From the IMG/VR virus record IMGVR_UViG_3300026302_000005, positions 273,301 to 337,300 of that record: a stretch of DNA of 64,000 nucleotides; one strand, 5' to 3'. A model generated the notes under the pieces. The model did no database searches. It saw only the letters and a list, made by a program, of their open reading frames with translations, and was not told the DNA's origin. The position numbers and the translations under genes were made by a program. Below are positions 1,074 to 5,135 of this stretch, one piece after another. The DNA is from a virus. Its lineage: Duplodnaviria; Heunggongvirae; Uroviricota; Caudoviricetes. Every line of letters starts with the position of its first letter. The first letter of the stretch is position 1.

Positions 1074-1156
1074 AATAGTCCTCCTTTGCATCACAGCAAT
1101 GGATCATCAGGATTACTATCATAGCGGCAGTATCAACACGACGATACGTGTTGTAG

Positions 1157-1245
1157 TGGAGCCCGAGGGTGGATTCGAACCACCGTCATCACTAGCAGGG
1201 AATGACCCCGCATTATCGCAAAGGATGCTACCACTGGGTCTTGTA
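1157..1245 (-). other. tRNA-like element, noncanonical (T-arm GGTGG/TTCGAAT/CCACC, 3' acceptor CTCGGGC-T-CCA, no matching 5' acceptor strand)
   Basis: A T-arm and CCA end are present and a GTGGTAG D-loop-like motif exists, but the 5' acceptor strand fails to pair. Confidence 0.3.
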
Positions 1246-2002
1246 GACCACGGGGCTGAGAAACCGCTCCCCCTCTTAGGCATCACACACGGGCATTCTA
1301 TTGACTGAGAACCGATGACCGGACGGCCCCTATATCCGTCCCATTCTACGATCACTAGGTGGCCACTCGATGAGGTGCGGCATATACTTGGCTACCAGGC
1401 TGGTGGATTATGAGTCCCCCCACACCTGACCCCGGGTAGGTTTCATCCCCCCGGAGCTTACCACATTGGGGCCGCTAAACCCCGTGGCAGTTCGCCATCT
1501 CAGCCAATCATCGGATCACAATCAATATCCGGGTTACCACCTTCCCGGGATGCTGTTACGCCGCATCGGACCCAAAAGACGGCCTGTGAAATAGCAGCCG
1601 AAGCTGTATCCCCGGGATCGCACAGACACGATCAGTTCCAGGGTGGGTAGGTTATGCCCGATAGTGTGCTGTTACGCCAAACTCTCTACCGGTCCCAAGC
1701 TGCTTTGCTTCACCAACACTGGATGATGTGGGATCGGCTTAGTTTGGCCCGGATCAAGGACCTCTTATGGTTCCCCCAATCATGGCCTGGCTCTCCAGCC
1801 TGCACTTGGTTCTCCCGACCTGGGTCACGACCTTCCCCGCATCCACGGAGGTCTCTCTTCCAGGTTTGAGACTCATTATAGGATGGCTGCTTTTAGGCCG
1901 ACCTCCTAACGGGCAATTGAATACGTCCGAGCAAGTGAGCGACCAGGATGTTTGGACGGTTGCCTTACCACTTGGCTACACATGCCTTGCGACATATGGT
2001 GG

Positions 2003-2160
2003 GATTCGAACCCACGATCCACTGTTTTGCGATAACCCTAATCATCGGCTCGGACGTAACTGGTTTGATGCGAACAAGGGGATGCCCTCGATAAAGTGCT
2101 CTACCGCTGAGCTATACGACCCTCACGGATCGCAGTGGGATTCGAACCCACGACCACTCG
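2003..2160 (-). other. cluster of tRNA fragments: two T-arms (about 2003-2020 and 2134-2156) flanking a canonical 5' half (GGGTCGTATAGCTCAGCGGTAGAGCA, rc of 2081-2122) whose partner 3' half is absent
   Basis: Read directly from the sequence. The acceptor strands of neighbouring halves do not pair with each other. Confidence 0.3.
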
Positions 2161-2373
2161 TTTCACAGACGATAACCGAGAAGCTTCGGCTCGCATCAAA
2201 TTTCACCACGATGTTGATACACCGTGGTAAGTCTCGTATGTGCATCCTTGCGGGTAACACCTACCGCTTTTCAGCGCCAGATTGGATACGAGACTTCTAA
2301 AAGGTTCATCTGGGCAAGGGATGCCGTGGGTATTTTACGCCGTGCTACCATTACACCAATCCCCCATAGTTTA

Positions 2374-2470
2374 GATGGCGGGGAACTCAGGAGTCGAACC
2401 TGAACCGTCGGCTTGACATGCGATAACCCACATGCTTCGGCCCAGATGAATTCATCAGCGGGGGGCACCG
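2374..2470 (-). other. tRNA-like element, noncanonical (T-arm TCAGG/TTCGACT/CCTGA, 3' end GTTCCCC-G-CCA)
   Basis: A T-arm plus an encoded CCA are present. No complementary 5' acceptor strand was found. Confidence 0.3.
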
Positions 2471-2603
2471 TCATGACCGAAGTCACGCTGCCGTGCTTAT
2501 CCCCCGCCCGCCACCTCGGGCGAACCCGTGTGGCAATAACATGGTATTTCCGACCGGTGCCTCACCACGATCCATCACGTCCTGGACCGCAACCCTATAC
2601 GTG

Positions 2604-2680
2604 ATTGACGGGTTTGTAGGTATCGAACCTACCTAGTCGAAACTGGATTGCTACCGGCAGGTCGGCATGACCCGCACTGT
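2604..2680 (-). other. tRNA-like element (T-arm GTAGG/TTCGATA/CCTAC; acceptor 5 of 7 bp; D-arm atypical)
   Basis: Manual fold. The CCA end is not encoded. Confidence 0.3.
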
Positions 2681-2961
2681 TTTCCCCGCAGGGGAACAGT
2701 GGAACTTTCGTCCGTCTGGTCCCGAGCCCGTAGGCCCGCCGTATTTGACATTGCTGTCTCCACGGGGTAGCAATTTTGAAACCTGTAGAGTGATCGGTCA
2801 TTACCCGATGATCGCCGTTACCCGCATCTCGTTTCCATGGTGACCTCCCAGCCGTCGCCGGGGTCGTTCCAAGGCGTTGTTAGGGCACACGCCGCGATTA
2901 CTAGCACGAGATGACGCCACTAGCACGATTTCGCACACTCTATCCCCGAAGGGATTCTTGA

Positions 2962-3058
2962 AGTTGGAGCCCGGGGGTGGATTCGCACCACCTGTGACGG
3001 TAAAGGATCACCCGCCGTCTATATAAGGATTCTAAAGCTACTCACGCTTACTCTCCGG
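2962..3058 (-). other. long (about 97 nt) tRNA-like element with a good acceptor (GCCCGGA/CCCGGGC-T-CCA) and a TGCGAAT T-loop; the internal arms are unresolved (possible insertion or intron)
   Basis: Acceptor and T-arm pair well, but the length and D/anticodon region are atypical. Confidence 0.35.
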
Positions 3059-3256
3059 GCATATGAATTAGGAGCGACCGCTTCGGACTCTTACCGCAGC
3101 TTTTACCAGGCCCCGTAGTCGCTTGTCCGGGCCAGTTATCCTGTCTACTATGCACCAGCACCGTCTCCGGGCATACCGGTCCATTGGTGTGGGGTCAAGC
3201 CCCTAGCTGGTGGTCAATTTCGGAGAGGCTTACAGAGTCATCCTCTTGCTCCCGTA

Positions 3257-3547
3257 TCAGTCCAGGTCCACGTAGAACGGTTGAGCCCGTTCACGCATCG
3301 CTGCCTCAGTCTCGGACAGTTTGTTCGGGTCCCAATAGGGCGCGGTCAACATGTTGACGGCTTCCGGTGTGTGTTTGCCATCAGCGGCAAGCAGGAAGAT
3401 GTCACGATGCACCGACATGGGCAGGCCATCGAACGTATCCTCACCACGGGGGTCTTCCAGTTGATACGCCACGATGTATTCGAGGATCGCAGCAGCGCGT
3501 CCCAGAAGGCGTCGGTTCAGCTTGTCTGCATCAGTCAACTCGGTCAT
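3257..3547 (-). CDS. hypothetical protein (96 aa)
   Basis: ORF with RBS GAAGGA 7 nt upstream of the ATG. It is the only convincing CDS inside the ORF-poor 1.1-5.1 kb region. Confidence 0.5.
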   Translation of the reverse strand: MTELTDADKLNRRLLGRAAAILEYIVAYQLEDPRGEDTFDGLPMSVHRDIFLLAADGKHTPEAVNMLTAPYWDPNKLSETEAAMRERAQPFYVDLD

Positions 3548-3573
3548 ACCGCGTCCTTCTCTGGTTGTGAATG

Positions 3574-3650
3574 GCTACCCCATGTGGGGATCGAACCCAC
3601 ATCAGCCCCGTGCGGCAGGGCCGATAACCTCTTGATGGGGCGGGCCCAGT
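3574..3650 (-). other. short tRNA-like element (about 66 nt core, acceptor GCCCCAT/ATGGGGT, reduced D-arm)
   Basis: Acceptor, anticodon-like stem (GCCCT/GGGGC) and T-arm are found, but the D-arm is too short for a normal tRNA. Confidence 0.3.
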
Positions 3651-3677
3651 TCCCGCCGTGGTTGCTGGGCTTTCTTG

Positions 3678-3812
3678 GTGCATCGGGGTGGATTCGAACC
3701 ACCGCTAGGCACTTCGCTGGGTTTATCCGGATTATTGACCAGCGTCGTGTTGTTCCTGTGACAGCCCTTTTCGGACCCGCTCTACCGCTTGAGCTACCTC
3801 TGCGTAAATATT
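3678..3812 (-). other. tRNA-like element with about 55 nt of extra internal sequence (canonical 5' half GCAGAGGTAGCTCAAGCGGTAGAGC; T-arm and CCA end about 130 nt away; acceptor pairs 5 of 7)
   Basis: Manual reading. The halves match only partially. Confidence 0.3.
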
Positions 3813-4432
3813 TCCTGGCACTCCCGGTTATGGAGCTATCGAACTGGTTCCAGGCTACCATCCCCAAGGTCATACCCGTCACCGGGCTAAGCTTACGTCA
3901 GGGTTTTTGGTCAGTTACCACCCGACCTCACCCGACCTCGGGAATATCCATCGTAGTAGACGCAGGGGAGACCGGCCAGCCGCCCCATTGTATTTCGATG
4001 GCATTCAAATTTGGTGCGGACCCCTGCGACTGGGCACAGGTAACAGCAGTGATCATTCCCTGCCGCTCCCACTGATAGTCCTACCAGGTGATCAACCCCC
4101 AGCGGTGTCTACCGATCCGCATTATTGGTCCCCTCAACAAGTGGTTTACAGCCACCCTGACGGGGTATGGGTGGCCTAGCAGTAGATCGCGACGAAACGA
4201 TCAATGCCATTACCCATATTGGTTTTGCAGCCGTGAGTGTTGCTCTCACATGGTATCCGGAAACCCATCGGCCCCTGTCACCAAGACTTGTCGAGAATTG
4301 AACTCAGCCATCCCCCTGGGGGACTGCAAATCTAAACCCACCATGCGGACATATCGGAGCATCCAACACCGCATGGTGGGCTATGGGCCCGGGCAAGCCG
4401 AGGCGGTTCGGCGTTGCTTATACCCATATGAA

Positions 4433-4544
4433 TGGTGGAGAAGGATGGATTCGAACCATCGACAGACCGTTGCTCCCGGCTGCTCTACCTGATCGCCTGC
4501 CTTCCCGATCCGGGACTCATTGCGACTCTCTGAGCTACTTCCCC
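4433..4544 (-). other. tRNA-like element (112 nt) with a perfect acceptor (GGGGAAG/CTTCTCC-A-CCA) and an insertion of about 38 nt inside the D-loop
   Basis: The D-stem GCTC...GAGC is split by an inserted sequence. T-arm is GATGG/TTCGAAT/CCATC. Confidence 0.35.
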
Positions 4545-4780
4545 ATATCGATATCTTGCGTGAACAGACACATGCTCACATCTCTCGGTTCCGTTGGGGT
4601 GGCCACCCCGTGGGTTCTTCCTGACGTGTGGGATCGGGCATGCCTGCCCTGTAGGCGATCCAACCAACCGTCCTGGGATTTGCACCCCGGTCCTGCATTT
4701 TTCAAAGAAATGCAATGCACTATACAACATCGGTTGAGCCTCAAGGGCTCTGTAGGTCAGTCTGTTCGCGAAAGATATCG

Positions 4781-4854
4781 TAATCACCAGCCATAGTGAG
4801 GACTCGAACCTCACATGCGCCGATCACCGCTTATGGCTGGTGATTAGATGCAGA
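4781..4854 (-). other. tRNA-like minihelix: a 13-bp stem (ATCACCAGCCATA/TATGGCTGGTGAT) enclosing a T-arm (GTGAGG-TTCGAGT-CCTCAC)
   Basis: A perfect inverted repeat flanks a canonical T-arm. There is no D-arm or anticodon arm. Confidence 0.35.
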
Positions 4855-5135
4855 TGTTCGACAAAGCAAACACTACACGGGGAGCTACCCCGGGTTGGGC
4901 ACACGTTTCGAATCGCGTGTTGATCCATCAGCCAAGTCAAGGACACGATCCTTGTCACGGGCCCTGTTTCGCAGACGTTTGAAGTCTGCTACTCGGGGCC
5001 CTGTGCTCCATACACCACGTATGGCCGACAGTTTGCTTTGTGGAACATCTGCTGCGGTCATCGGGTTACCCCTACCGCTGTTCCAGTGTGGATTTCAAAG
5101 AGCGTGGTCTTTCGACCGTTTCCGTAAGACCCTAT

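What the first reader, a model, noticed from the sequence alone, without database searches (positions are those of the whole stretch)
1100..5100. 4-kb ORF-poor region packed with noncanonical tRNA-like elements
Between the gene at 711..1073 and about 5100 only one convincing small CDS exists (3257..3547). The rest carries at least nine T-arm motifs (GGTTCGAAYCC on the minus strand) whose acceptor strands fail to pair, or whose halves are separated by 40-60 nt of extra sequence. There are also orphan 5' halves with perfect D-arms (2081-2122, 3781-3810). This could be decayed tRNA genes, intron-containing or split tRNAs, or larger structured RNAs (tmRNA-like or RNase P-like) built on tRNA-like modules. 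One stretch (about 1157-1400, minus strand) has tmRNA-like features: a T-arm, a CCA end, and a 5' GCCTGG partner that pairs 6 of 7.
Basis: seen in the sequence. Interest (0 to 1): 0.6.

Follow-up and report, generated by a model that had tools for sequence, protein, structure and literature searches.

The report
Phage RNA island with Y RNAs
The gene-poor 4 kb is a conserved stretch of RNA genes in a roughly 376-kb phage: three tandem Y RNAs (Ro60-binding RNAs that contain a rearranged tRNA-like module) plus several long tRNA look-alikes that cannot decode, not broken tRNA genes.

Summary
There are nine GGTTCRANNCC T-arm motifs on the minus strand in 1100-5100, against about 0.1 expected by chance. 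Only ORF 3257-3547 has coding-like codon usage.

- **Y RNAs (strongest result).** Positions 2306-2448, 2066-2197 and 1923-2056 (minus strand) are three tandem YrlA-type Y RNAs. Each has a closing stem carrying the GCCGA(A/U)G...GGUUAUC motif, then a T-arm, an acceptor hairpin and a D-arm. A covariance model built only from other phages' Y RNAs, several of them directly upstream of Ro60 genes, scores them 90, 86 and 66 bits. The next hit in the window scores 24 bits.
- **Long tRNA-like RNAs.** The other T-arms belong to tRNA-like RNAs of 65-140 nt. They have an acceptor stem, mostly an encoded CCA and a tRNA-type 5' leader, but no anticodon loop.
- **Conservation.** Syntenic relatives at 75-87% identity (L127, L130/131, L133) show compensatory changes in T3, T4 (acceptor and T stems) and T5. 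They also show that T1, T2, the mini-tRNA and the mini-helix are presence/absence cassettes.
- **Conserved non-coding blocks.** Five such blocks lie between these elements, and none matches Rfam.
- **Rejected readings.** The tmRNA-like, intron-containing tRNA and pseudogene-debris readings are all rejected.
- **Ro60.** No Ro60 gene lies within about 12 kb on one side of the Y RNAs or about 62 kb on the other.

Phage Y RNAs are already known. The orphan Y RNA array, the tRNA-mimic cassettes and the unassigned blocks are the new parts.

The parts
2306..2448 (-). Y1, a YrlA-type Y RNA. It has a closing stem with GGGCCGAAG...GGGUUAUCG paired to ...CCCUUGCCC, then a T-arm, then a 7-bp acceptor hairpin whose loop reads G-CCA-UCUAAACUAU, then a D-arm.
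   Evidence: Model R1, built without any window sequence, scores it 90.3 bits (E 1e-21), full length. Rfam gives Y_RNA 26.5 bits and YrlA 21 bits, both below gathering. The single-sequence fold has z -2.3. Orthologues in L127 and L130 keep the acceptor hairpin with changed sequence, and the N-CCA is kept. It is 69% identical to a Y RNA of a 465-kb IMG/VR phage, L023.
2066..2197 (-). Y2, a YrlA-type Y RNA. The acceptor hairpin UGCGAUC/GGUCGUA is closed by a 6-nt loop and followed by the D-arm UAGCUCAGCGGUAGAGC.
   Evidence: R1 scores it 86.1 bits (E 2e-20). Rfam YrlA gives 36.7 bits. Fold z is -3.4. In the test that uses only the window's own fold, 17 of 18 changed pair-cells in orthologues stay paired.
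1923..2056 (-). Y3, a YrlA-type Y RNA with the variant motif GCCGAUG.
   Evidence: R1 scores it 65.8 bits (E 3e-15). Rfam YrlA gives 29.6 bits, full length. 13 of 14 changed pair-cells are kept.
4433..4544 (-). T2, a 112-nt tRNA-like RNA. It has a 7-bp acceptor with G3:U70, A73 and CCA, a D stem whose loop carries a 43-nt hairpin, a 4-bp 'anticodon' stem with loop GGAGCAA (no U33), and a canonical T-arm. It is preceded by the leader AUAU.
   Evidence: Rfam tRNA gives 38.5 bits against a gathering score of 29. Fold. It is absent from L127, L130 and L133, which carry other sequence at this position.
3676..3803 (-). T1, a 128-nt tRNA-like RNA. The acceptor has 5 of 7 pairs with a tandem G.A/A.G. 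It has a perfect D-arm, 68 nt in place of the anticodon arm, a T-arm, and A-CCA.
   Evidence: Rfam tRNA gives 32.9 bits in E-value mode. It is a window-only insertion relative to L127 and L130.
3577..3641 (-). Mini tRNA-like element. The acceptor GCCCCAU/AUGGGGU encloses GGUUAUC, one hairpin and a T-arm. It has no CCA and lies just upstream of the ribosome-binding site of the 96-aa gene.
   Evidence: It is part of the same window-only insertion as T1.
2965..3060 (-). T3, a 96-nt tRNA-like RNA. It has acceptor GCCCGG/CCGGGC, U73 and CCA, a leader ending AUAU, and a T-arm-position hairpin whose loop is not conserved (UGCGAAU here, UCCAACU in L127).
   Evidence: Against L127 4327-4422 there are 4 compensated pairs, 1 one-sided change and 0 broken pairs. 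In the window-only-fold test, 5 of 5 changed pairs are kept.
1157..1294 (-). T4, a 138-nt tRNA-like RNA. It has acceptor GCCCGUG/CUCGGGC, U73 and CCA, and a canonical T-arm.
   Evidence: The orthologue L130 12083-12219 has acceptor GUGUCUG/CAGAUGC and T stem GUUGG/CCAAC, so 4 acceptor pairs and 1 T-stem pair change while staying paired. In L130 it sits after block D, and it is absent from L127. The interior fold is unresolved: 7 of 19 changed pairs are kept on the window's own MFE fold.
4781..4846 (-). Mini-helix, a 15-bp stem capped by a small hairpin and a canonical T-arm. It resembles an acceptor-T minihelix.
   Evidence: Fold z is -5.7. Rfam mascRNA-menRNA gives 23.9 bits, E 0.15. It is a precise insertion present in the window and L133 and absent from L127 and L130.
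4009..4122 (-). T7, a candidate tRNA-like RNA. It has acceptor GCGGAUC/GGUCCGC-A-CCA and a 6-bp/6-nt hairpin at the T-arm position.
   Evidence: Its ends are invariant in three lineages, and an insertion in L130 starts right after the CCA. 14 of 20 changed pair-cells are kept.
5377..5467 (-). T8, a tRNA-like RNA just outside the finding. It has acceptor GGAAGUG/CACUUCU-A-CCA and T loop CGCGAUA.
   Evidence: Orthologues are in L133 and L130.
2616..2632 (-). Isolated T-arm inside a poorly conserved stretch.
   Evidence: The stem is GUAGG/CCUAC in the window and L130 and GACCG/CGGUC in L127, with the loop kept as UUCGAUA or UUCGAAU.
4545..4783 (-). Block B, a conserved non-coding block of about 235 nt with a possible long closing helix (GAUAUCUUUCGCGAAC ... 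GUUCACGCAAGAUAUC).
   Evidence: Four lineages are about 80% identical. Individual hairpins covary, for example GAGCC/GGCUC, AGUCC/GGACU, CAGAC/GUCUG and GGCUC/GAGCC. A global fold is not shown: 21 of 75 changed pair-cells are kept on the window's MFE fold. No Rfam hit.
3822..4225 (-). Block C, a conserved non-coding block that contains T7.
   Evidence: Three lineages; alifold gives 16 compensated pairs and 23 pairs with a broken cell. For the 3' part, 22 of 41 changed pair-cells are kept.
3062..3256 (-). Block D, a conserved non-coding block that is always followed by a tRNA-like RNA.
   Evidence: About 115 nt are almost identical between the window and L127, in a background of about 76% identity. 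L130 differs at about 10 sites. The hairpin GCUGCGG-UAAGAGU-CCGAAGC keeps its fifth pair as C-G in the window and G-C in L130. A global fold is not shown.
2775..2962 (-). Block F, a conserved non-coding block.
   Evidence: It is 87% identical to L127. Alifold gives 5 compensated pairs, 5 one-sided changes and 0 broken pairs. 7 of 8 changed pair-cells are kept. No match was detected in L130.
1295..1580 (-). Block J, a conserved non-coding block of about 270 nt. It includes a hairpin with an invariant CUCAUAA loop (identical to a Met-type anticodon loop) on a fully covarying stem.
   Evidence: Three lineages; alifold gives 16 compensated pairs, 8 one-sided changes and 10 pairs with a broken cell. 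38 of 61 changed pair-cells are kept.
4213..4332 (-). 3' part of a unit that ends ...AAACCA and is followed by AUAU|GGG.
   Evidence: It is 96% identical to L130 11052-11171. The junction AAACCAAUAU is kept in L127 and L130.
3257..3547 (-). The only protein-coding gene in the island (96 aa, no family match).
   Evidence: Codon score +0.39. Homologue P0002 is 82% identical. No Pfam or PHROG hit. The gene is absent from L130.

Best explanation
Window 1100-5600 (minus strand) is a functional, mostly non-coding RNA island that continues the tRNA gene array of a phage of about 376 kb. It contains three kinds of element.

(1) Three tandem Y RNAs of the YrlA type. In each, the 5' and 3' ends pair into a stem carrying the Ro60-binding GNCGAA(N)G-type motif. 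The interior is a circularly rearranged tRNA-like module in the order T-arm, closed acceptor stem, D-arm. By analogy with characterised Y RNAs, the stem binds a Ro60/Rsr ring protein, encoded either by the host or elsewhere in the phage genome. The tRNA-like module recruits a partner such as PNPase, or presents itself to tRNA enzymes. Y1 carries N-CCA plus an AUAU|G leader inside its acceptor loop, so it is probably cut by RNase P into a two-piece, CCA-ended form, as M. smegmatis YrlA is.

(2) At least seven tRNA-like RNAs of 65-140 nt. Each has an acceptor stem; most have a T-arm, an encoded CCA and the same 5' leader as the phage's real tRNAs. Their D and anticodon regions are replaced by other helices. 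They should therefore be processed and end-repaired like tRNAs, but they cannot read codons.

(3) Conserved non-coding blocks of unknown class between these elements.

Shown here: the sequence and structure membership of the Y RNAs; conservation and compensatory change in T3, T4 (acceptor and T stems), T5, F and the Y RNAs; the cassette-like presence or absence of T1, T2, the mini-tRNA and the mini-helix. Inferred: Ro60 binding; RNase P and CCA processing; co-transcription from the promoter at about 6395; and any cellular role of the tRNA mimics.
For: Y RNAs:
- A DNA pattern taken from the three window elements retrieved phage loci in which the same RNA lies directly upstream of TROVE+vWA (Ro60) genes: L033, L048, L068 and L123, and also L028, L072 and L091.
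- Covariance model R1, built from 11 such non-window RNAs, hits the window at 2306-2448 (90.3 bits), 2066-2197 (86.1 bits) and 1923-2056 (65.8 bits), each full length. The next hit is 24 bits, at a tRNA-tRNA junction.
- In a 30-sequence alignment, 95.3% of pair-cells form pairs, 17 of 20 pairs show double changes, and slid controls give about 40%.
- Rfam E-value mode independently gives YrlA and Y_RNA hits on all three.
- Chen et al. 2014 (PMC4201824) define YrlA by the GNCGAAN0-1G stem motif plus T-arm, acceptor and D-arm mimicry. [quoted passage not shown]

Relatives:
- L127, L130/131 and L133 are syntenic at 75-87% identity and keep all three Y RNAs.
- Acceptor hairpins change sequence but stay at 7 bp.

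tRNA mimics:
- Compensated pairs with none broken are seen in T3, T4 and T5.
- With folds predicted from the window sequence alone, changed pairs are kept 5/5 in T3, 6/6 in T5, 17/18 in Y2, 13/14 in Y3 and 7/8 in F. Two coding controls give about 0.3.

Context:
- All 28 real tRNAs encode CCA and have A/U-rich leaders.
- A CCA-adding enzyme is encoded at 20415-21728.
- Twelve TTGAC-N17/18-TAAATA promoter-like sites lie on the minus strand. None is inside the island, and the nearest upstream is at 6395.
Against: - No Ro60/TROVE gene is found in the 64-kb window, in the 10 kb beyond its start, or in the 20-kb loci of relatives. Described Y RNAs lie next to Ro60 genes.
- The Y RNAs score below Rfam's YrlA gathering threshold (36.7 bits at best, against 69).
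- Y3 has GCCGAUG rather than GNCGAA.
- T1 and T2 have no orthologues, so nothing shows that they are under selection, and their folds are not better than shuffles (z -0.9 and -1.2).
- For blocks B and D and for the interior of T4, the window-only fold test is no better than the coding controls.
- There are no expression data.
Confidence: 0.8

Rival explanations
1. Neutral debris: the T-arms are remnants of decayed tRNA genes in a tRNA array that turns over quickly.
For: T1, T2, the mini-tRNA and the mini-helix are present or absent among close relatives. T1 has a mismatched acceptor. T1 and T2 do not fold better than shuffles.
Against: Y1-Y3, T3, T5 and F keep their helices through compensatory substitutions, and T4 does so in its acceptor and T stems. 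Unconstrained spacers between blocks are already unalignable at this divergence, while the elements stay 75-100% identical. Encoded CCA and leader motifs are retained.
Confidence: 0.07
2. Interrupted or permuted true tRNA genes: the halves are joined by splicing or circularisation into normal decoding tRNAs. This covers intron-containing, split or permuted tRNAs.
For: Rfam tRNA hits with large inserts at 4436-4544 and 3679-3803. ARAGORN in intron mode calls a tRNA-Ile at 1157-2521 with a 1266-nt intron, a tRNA-Val at 3572-4167 and a tRNA-Pro at 4433-4544. Y1-Y3 have the 3'-half-before-5'-half gene order of permuted tRNA genes. An ATP-dependent ligase is encoded at 13734-15029.
Against: No element has a 7-nt anticodon loop with U33. 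The 'anticodon' loops differ in length between orthologues, for example 6 nt against 5 nt in T5. Rfam finds no group I or II intron in the region at E<10. The inserts lie in the D loop or replace the whole anticodon arm. The permuted ones carry the Ro60-binding stem motif and match RNAs next to Ro60 genes. The 5' strand at 2521 is conserved in L127, which lacks T4, whereas T4's real 5' strand at 1294 covaries.
Confidence: 0.05
3. tmRNA-like RNA at 1157-1400, or another known large RNA such as RNase P RNA, a group I intron, GOLLD or ROOL.
For: A T-arm plus CCA lies at 1157-1184. GCCUGG at about 1396 can pair 6 of 7 with the 3' strand. At an 80% threshold ARAGORN lists weak 'permuted tmRNA' candidates.
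Against: ARAGORN at default finds no tmRNA. The Rfam tmRNA hits are 16-21 bits against a gathering score of 47, and they fall on the Y RNA T-arms, not at 1157-1400. The covarying 5' strand is at 1288-1294. In L130 the T4 unit sits elsewhere, detached from block J, and L127 keeps block J but lacks T4. No RNase P, intron, GOLLD or ROOL hit appears at E<10.
Confidence: 0.02
4. The tRNA-like units are mainly exchangeable processing or mobility cassettes. They act as RNase P / RNase Z 'punctuation' that releases the flanking RNAs from a long transcript, in the way mascRNA does at the end of MALAT1. They move or are swapped by recombination at the repeated CCA-AUAU-G junctions, and they have no function of their own. 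This can coexist with the main explanation.
For: Unit boundaries repeatedly read ...CCA(A)-(N)-AUAU|G. Indels coincide with whole units: T2 plus its neighbour, T1 plus the mini-tRNA, the mini-helix, an L127-specific unit, and the relocated T4. No promoter-like site lies inside the island. The mini-helix resembles mascRNA (23.9 bits). Block D is followed by a different tRNA-like unit in each lineage.
Against: T3, T4 and T5 conserve more than a minimal RNase P substrate would need. No target-site duplications or mobility genes were identified, apart from a weak HNH-like ORF at 6282-6824. Transcription units are unknown.
Confidence: 0.3

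Closest known systems
YrlA / bacterial and phage Y RNAs bound by Ro60 (Rsr); Rfam RF02553; Chen et al. 2014, PMC4201824
   Same: A closing stem with the GNCGAA(N)G motif, followed by a tRNA-like module in the order T-arm, acceptor stem, D-arm. Several tandem copies occur. Y1's 7-bp acceptor with CCA resembles the RNase P-cleaved M. smegmatis YrlA. Phage examples are known, including mycobacteriophages, CcrColossus, phage G and Thermus phage phiLo (PMC12135203).
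   Different: The window's copies score below Rfam's gathering threshold. They are not adjacent to a Ro60 gene: none lies within about 12 kb on one side or about 62 kb on the other. They are embedded in a tRNA array instead. Y3 has GCCGAUG.
Small stable RNAs of the phage T4 tRNA gene cluster (species 1 and 2, rnaC/rnaD). This comparison rests on my own knowledge and was not checked in the paper library.
   Same: RNAs of about 120-140 nt of unknown function, encoded among phage tRNA genes, co-processed with them, and carrying tRNA-like 3' ends.
   Different: No sequence relationship was tested. Here there are many more such units, and they vary between close relatives.
mascRNA at the 3' end of MALAT1 / MEN-beta (Rfam RF01684)
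   Same: A tRNA-like minihelix with a T-arm that serves as an RNase P / RNase Z processing signal next to a larger non-coding RNA. The mini-helix at 4781-4846 gives a weak hit (23.9 bits).
   Different: That is a eukaryotic family, the hit is below threshold, and there is no evidence of homology.
tmRNA tRNA-like domain
   Same: It combines an acceptor, a T-arm and CCA without an anticodon. T2 carries the G3:U70/A73 alanine determinants that tmRNA also uses.
   Different: There is no tag reading frame, no pseudoknot ring, and no ARAGORN or Rfam tmRNA call.
ROOL and GOLLD large ornate RNAs of phages and prophages
   Same: Large conserved non-coding RNAs of unknown function that lie 'often near tRNA islands'; GOLLD sometimes has tRNAs in its linker (bioRxiv 10.1101/2024.12.08.627333).
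   Different: Blocks B, C, D, F and J give no Rfam GOLLD or ROOL hit at E<10. They are shorter (190-400 nt), and their global folds are not established.
Circularly permuted tRNA genes of Cyanidioschyzon merolae (my own knowledge)
   Same: The 3' half (T-arm and acceptor 3' strand) lies upstream of the 5' half (acceptor 5' strand and D-arm).
   Different: In those genes the transcript ends join to form an anticodon arm. Here the ends form a long Ro60-type stem with no anticodon loop.

Membership tests
YrlA-type Y RNA | A stem formed by the 5' and 3' ends that carries the conserved GNCGAAN0-1G motif (the Ro60-binding helix) | tested here: met
   Y1 has GGGCCGAAG and Y2 has GAGCCGAAG. Y3 has GAGCCGAUG, one deviation. 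The closing stems covary: 7 of 8 pairs show double changes in the 30-sequence alignment.
YrlA-type Y RNA | An internal tRNA-like module in the order T-arm, acceptor-like stem, D-arm | tested here: met
   Seen in the folds and alignments. In the 30-sequence alignment, 3 of 5 T-arm pairs, all 3 modelled acceptor pairs and all 4 D-stem pairs show changes on both sides.
YrlA-type Y RNA | Score at or above Rfam RF02553's gathering threshold (69 bits) | tested here: not met
   The scores are 36.7, 29.6 and 21.1 bits. Phage Y RNAs lying directly next to Ro60 genes also failed the threshold, so the Rfam model under-reaches for phage members. The custom model R1 gives 66-90 bits.
YrlA-type Y RNA | Encoded next to a Ro60/Rsr (TROVE) gene | tested here: not met
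   tblastn with four phage Ro60 proteins finds nothing in the window, L127 or L130/131. No TROVE gene lies in the 10 kb beyond the window start. The rest of the 376-kb contig could not be read.
YrlA-type Y RNA | Bound by Ro60 in vivo or in vitro | not testable with these tools
   This needs co-immunoprecipitation or EMSA.
tRNA (decoding), for T1-T5, T7 and T8 | Cloverleaf with a 7-nt anticodon loop (U33, purine 37) on a 5-bp stem | tested here: not met
   T2 has a 4-bp stem with loop GGAGCAA. T1 has a 5-nt loop. The T5 loop is 6 nt in the window and 5 nt in L130. T4 has a 5-nt loop. ARAGORN at default calls none of them.
tRNA (Rfam RF00005) | Score at or above the gathering threshold of 29 bits | tested here: met
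   T2 scores 38.5 and T1 scores 32.9. The score comes from the acceptor, D and T arms only, and large inserts are skipped. T3 and T4 are not reported at E<10.
tmRNA | A tRNA-like domain formed by the two ends, an internal tag ORF with a resume codon, and pseudoknots | tested here: not met
   There is no ARAGORN tmRNA at default. Rfam tmRNA gives at most 21 bits, located elsewhere. The 5' strand of the 1180 T-arm is at 1294.
tRNA gene with a group I intron | A group I catalytic core inserted in the anticodon loop | tested here: not met
   No Intron_gpI hit appears in 900-5700 at E<10. The same search does find one in the unrelated locus L004.
GOLLD / ROOL | A match to the Rfam covariance models | tested here: not met
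   No hit at E<10 in 900-5700 or in L127.

The most novel reading that the evidence does not exclude
Besides the Y RNAs, the island may encode a family that has not been described: non-decoding, CCA-ended tRNA mimics that behave as exchangeable cassettes. One of them, T2, could be charged with alanine through its G3:U70 pair. The island may also encode several new structured RNA classes (blocks B, C, D, F and J, the last with an invariant Met-type anticodon-loop mimic). Together with 'orphan' Y RNAs and the phage's CCA-adding enzyme, these could form an RNA-based hub. Such a hub might hijack host Ro60/PNPase and tRNA-handling enzymes, or act as a decoy for host toxins that attack tRNA acceptor ends.
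Probability: 0.3. Interest if true: 0.75.

Novelty: new variant of a known kind. Interest (0 to 1): 0.55.

Why it matters
- Y RNAs have been described as satellites of Ro60 genes. Here three of them sit in a huge phage's tRNA array with no Ro60 gene nearby. Either host Ro60 is being hijacked, or the Y RNAs have a Ro60-independent, tRNA-related role.
- The same island shows that 'failed tRNA predictions' in phage tRNA arrays can be selected, structured RNAs. These keep the acceptor/T-arm/CCA end of a tRNA and discard the decoding half, and they are gained and lost as units between close relatives.
- This gives a concrete set of candidates for testing what tRNA mimicry does during infection: processing punctuation, decoys for tRNA-targeting defences, or partners of Ro60/PNPase.
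- It also adds five conserved non-coding blocks to the list of unexplained phage RNAs found near tRNA islands.

Tried and rejected
- **Searches for relatives that gave nothing useful.**
  - Megablast of 1000-5700 against GenBank phages: no match.
  - IMG/VR search with the 96-aa ORF: nothing.
  - IMG/VR search with gene 711-1094: six loci, but none syntenic and none with similar RNA elements.
- **Exact-pattern scans.**
  - Block D in IMG/VR and in GTDB genomes, and block B in IMG/VR: 0 hits.
  - The one metagenome scan, with a Y1 motif: only an unrelated 1.2-kb contig, which itself carries Y RNAs.
- **ARAGORN intron mode.** It proposed a tRNA-Ile at 1157-2521 with a 1266-nt intron that would enclose all three Y RNAs, and a tRNA-Val at 3572-4167. 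Both are rejected. Their D arms are poor. The 2521 strand is conserved in L127, which lacks T4, and T4's true 5' strand at 1294 covaries with L130.
- **tmRNA reading of 1157-1400:** rejected.
- **Small proteins in the other ORFs:** rejected on codon usage and on the absence of Pfam or PHROG hits.
- **Ro60 gene.** tblastn of the window and relatives found none, and the 10 kb beyond the window start has none. I could not walk further along the 376-kb contig.
- **Global folds for blocks B and D and for the interior of T4.** Using the window's single-sequence MFE fold, the kept-pair fraction was no better than in the coding controls. I therefore claim only conservation and a few covarying hairpins for these.
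- **Paralogues.** Self-comparison found no paralogues of the blocks elsewhere in the window.

Full report
**Observation**

The motif GGTTCRANNCC occurs 36 times in the 64-kb window, always on the minus strand, against 1.9 expected from shuffles. Nine of the matches lie in 1100-5100, and each sits on a perfect 5-bp T stem. ARAGORN at default settings tRNAs in the window but none in 1100-5100. Rfam at gathering threshold calls only 4436-4544 there. A codon-usage score trained on 17 genes of the window is clearly positive only for ORF 3257-3547 inside the region. No other ORF has a Pfam or PHROG match.

**Context**

- The window comes from a 375,951-bp metagenomic contig.
- It has strong PHROG matches, a CCA-adding enzyme, an ATP-dependent ligase, SAM synthetase and other auxiliary genes. 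It is a huge phage.
- Almost everything is on the minus strand.
- All 28 tRNAs encode CCA, usually followed by A, and have A/U-rich leaders.
- The promoter-like motif TTGAC-N17/18-TAAATA occurs 12 times on the minus strand and never on the plus strand. None lies within the island, and the nearest upstream copy is at 6395.

**Y RNAs**

Rfam in E-value mode gave sub-threshold YrlA and Y_RNA hits at 2091-2159, 1933-2052 and 2299-2447.

Reading the sequence shows the same plan three times. There is a 5' strand with GCCGA(A/U)G and GGUUAUCG, then a canonical T-arm, then the acceptor 3' strand. A loop follows, then the acceptor 5' strand, a D-arm, and a 3' strand ...C(C)CUUG... that pairs back to the 5' end.

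A pattern built from the shared 5' motif retrieved IMG/VR loci with the same architecture. In L033, L048, L068 and L123 the RNA lies immediately upstream of a TROVE+vWA_Ro60 gene. L028, L072 and L091 also carry Ro60 genes by tblastn.

I then built a covariance model (R1) from 11 of these non-window RNAs only. It finds window 2306-2448 (90.3 bits, E 1e-21), 2066-2197 (86.1 bits) and 1923-2056 (65.8 bits), all full length. The next best hit is 24 bits, at a junction between two ordinary tRNAs.

On 30 aligned matches, 95.3% of pair-cells are paired, against about 40% when partners are slid. Seventeen of 20 pairs show changes on both sides.

These features are the ones Chen et al. 2014 used to define YrlA. 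That paper also reports that the M. smegmatis YrlA, which has a 7-bp acceptor, is cut by RNase P and receives CCA.

Y1 has a 7-bp acceptor whose loop begins G-CCA and ends AUAU just before the 5' strand. This is the context of the phage's real tRNAs, and the N-CCA is kept in L127, L130, L023 and L079. Y2 and Y3 have short closing loops.

**Relatives**

The 96-aa ORF and the small ORF ending at 5136 (listed as 5136-5420 and queried over that range; the homologues are 71-74 aa, which suggests the real start is near 5360) led to three further lineages that share the island: L127/L128, L133, and L130/L131, the last from contigs of 204 and 263 kb. Nucleotide identity is 72-87% in aligned blocks. 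Other stretches cannot be aligned at all. All three Y RNAs are kept, with changed but still paired acceptor hairpins.

**tRNA-like RNAs**

The remaining T-arms belong to units with these features:
- a 5' leader ending in AU;
- a 6-7-bp acceptor stem;
- usually a canonical T-arm;
- a discriminator base and an encoded CCA.

Their middle part is not a D arm plus anticodon arm.

| Unit | Coordinates (minus strand) | Key features | Comparative evidence |
|---|---|---|---|
| T2 | 4433-4544 | Rfam tRNA 38.5 bits; 43-nt hairpin in the D loop; no U33; G3:U70 and A73 | Window only |
| T1 | 3676-3803 | Rfam tRNA 32.9 bits; 68 nt in place of the anticodon arm | Window only |
| T3 | 2965-3060 | Acceptor GCCCGG/CCGGGC, U73, CCA | 4 compensated pairs, 0 broken (L127) |
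| T4 | 1157-1294 | Canonical T-arm, U73, CCA | 9 compensated, 4 one-sided, 0 broken (L130); includes four acceptor pairs and one T-stem pair |
| T5 | 8298-8394 | Outside the finding | 5 compensated, 1 one-sided, 0 broken (L130) |

These counts come from consensus folds.

In a stricter test the fold is predicted from the window sequence alone:
- Changed pairs are kept 5/5 in T3, 6/6 in T5 and 14/20 in T7.
- Only 7/19 are kept in T4, whose interior is therefore unresolved.
- Two coding controls give about 0.3.

The 'anticodon' loops are 5-6 nt long and differ in length between orthologues, so these RNAs cannot decode.

T1, T2 and the mini-tRNA at 3577-3641 are absent from the relatives. The mini-helix at 4781-4846 is present only in the window and L133. 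L127 has a tRNA-like unit of its own after block D, and in L130 T4 sits after block D. The units therefore behave as cassettes, and junctions repeatedly read CCA(A)...AUAU|G.

- The '5' half' at 2081-2122 is Y2's acceptor 5' strand and D-arm.
- The one at 3781-3810 is T1's 5' half.
- The tmRNA-like idea for 1157-1400 fails on four counts:
  - The covarying 5' strand is at 1288-1294.
  - Block J upstream is retained in L127 without T4.
  - T4 is detached from block J in L130.
  - Neither ARAGORN nor Rfam supports a tmRNA.
- ARAGORN's intron-mode tRNA-Ile (1157-2521) is a chance pairing.

**Conserved blocks**

Five non-coding blocks lie between the units. All are conserved in two to four lineages and none gives an Rfam hit.
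- Block B: 4545-4783.
- Block C: 3822-4225, which includes T7.
- Block D: 3062-3256.
- Block F: 2775-2962.
- Block J: 1295-1580.

Block F (7 of 8 changed pairs kept), block J (38 of 61, with a CUCAUAA loop on a fully covarying stem) and part of block C have some structural support. For blocks B and D, only individual hairpins covary. Block D is almost identical to L127 over about 115 nt.

**Mechanism**

I conclude that the island is a string of RNA genes that is probably co-transcribed with the neighbouring tRNAs. It would be cut at tRNA-like units by RNase P and 3' processing enzymes, with CCA ends maintained by the phage enzyme.

The Y RNAs would bind Ro60/Rsr through their stem. They would present a tRNA-like module to a partner such as PNPase, as shown for bacterial and phiLo phage Ro60-Y RNA-PNPase complexes.

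No Ro60 gene lies within about 12 kb on one side or 62 kb on the other. Ro60 is nonetheless common in phage contigs, including ones of 212-417 kb. Binding, processing and any role of the tRNA mimics are inferences.

**Comparison and novelty**

Y RNAs with tRNA-like domains, including phage ones, have been known since 2014, so Y1-Y3 are new members of a known kind. Three things are not described in what I could read:
- the placement of Y RNAs in a tRNA array without an adjacent Ro60 gene;
- the accompanying family of selected, non-decoding, CCA-ended tRNA mimics that come and go as cassettes;
- the unassigned conserved blocks.

ROOL and GOLLD are precedents for large unexplained RNAs near phage tRNA islands, but they do not match here.

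Noticed in passing
window 27727-27803 (-): A well-formed tRNA (Rfam 70 bits) with anticodon CUA, which ARAGORN labels 'tRNA-Pyl'. It may be an amber suppressor, which would hint at stop-codon reassignment or suppression by the phage.
   Followed up: no
window, minus strand: 56746, 54492, 44054, 43592, 42474, 39376, 39243, 34257, 24868, 17357, 11330, 6395: The promoter-like motif TTGAC(A)-N17/18-(C)TAAATA occurs 12 times on the minus strand and never on the plus strand. It often ends 7-8 nt before a tRNA 5' end. None lies inside the RNA island.
   Followed up: partly
window 8298-8394 (-) and 7159-7265 (-): Two more long tRNA-like RNAs lie outside the finding. T5 is 97 nt with a perfect acceptor and CCA, and is conserved in L130 with all 6 changed pairs kept. 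T6 is 107 nt and has no CCA.
   Followed up: partly
L033 3507-3629 (+): An un-permuted counterpart of YrlA: a tRNA-shaped RNA (Rfam tRNA 43 bits) whose anticodon arm is replaced by a hairpin carrying the Ro60-type motifs (CUUGCCC...GGGCCGAAG...GGUUAUC). It sits in a four-member Y RNA array just upstream of a Ro60 gene.
   Followed up: partly
window 6282-6824 (-): An ORF with weak HNH / His-Me homing-endonuclease matches, below the Pfam cut-offs, inside the tRNA array.
   Followed up: no
L023 (465-kb contig), L079 (462-kb contig), L025 (298-kb contig): Other huge-phage contigs also carry YrlA-type RNAs scattered among tRNA genes (R1 scores 60-122 bits), plus T-arm units that ARAGORN does not call. 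No Ro60 gene lies in the 9-14 kb held for each locus.
   Followed up: partly
L127 923-1966, L133 449-1492, L130 8062-9102; window 5474-5586: All three relatives have a gene of about 347 aa between tRNA-Leu(UAA) and the T8 unit. The window has instead a 110-nt spacer made of GCAAGC-type repeats.
   Followed up: no
window 10057-10773 and 17144-17309 (-): Several tRNAs occur as adjacent pairs with the same anticodon but different lengths: His x2, Asn x2 (75 and 86 nt), Tyr x2 and Met x2.
   Followed up: no
L004 8911-9131 (+): A group I intron (Rfam 79 bits) lies in an unrelated IMG/VR contig that was fetched through the neighbouring gene.
   Followed up: no
IMG/VR, loci L134-L213: Ro60 (TROVE+vWA) relatives were confirmed in 272 viral stretches, including contigs of 212, 296 and 417 kb. 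Phage-encoded Ro60 is far more common than the few published examples suggest.
   Followed up: no
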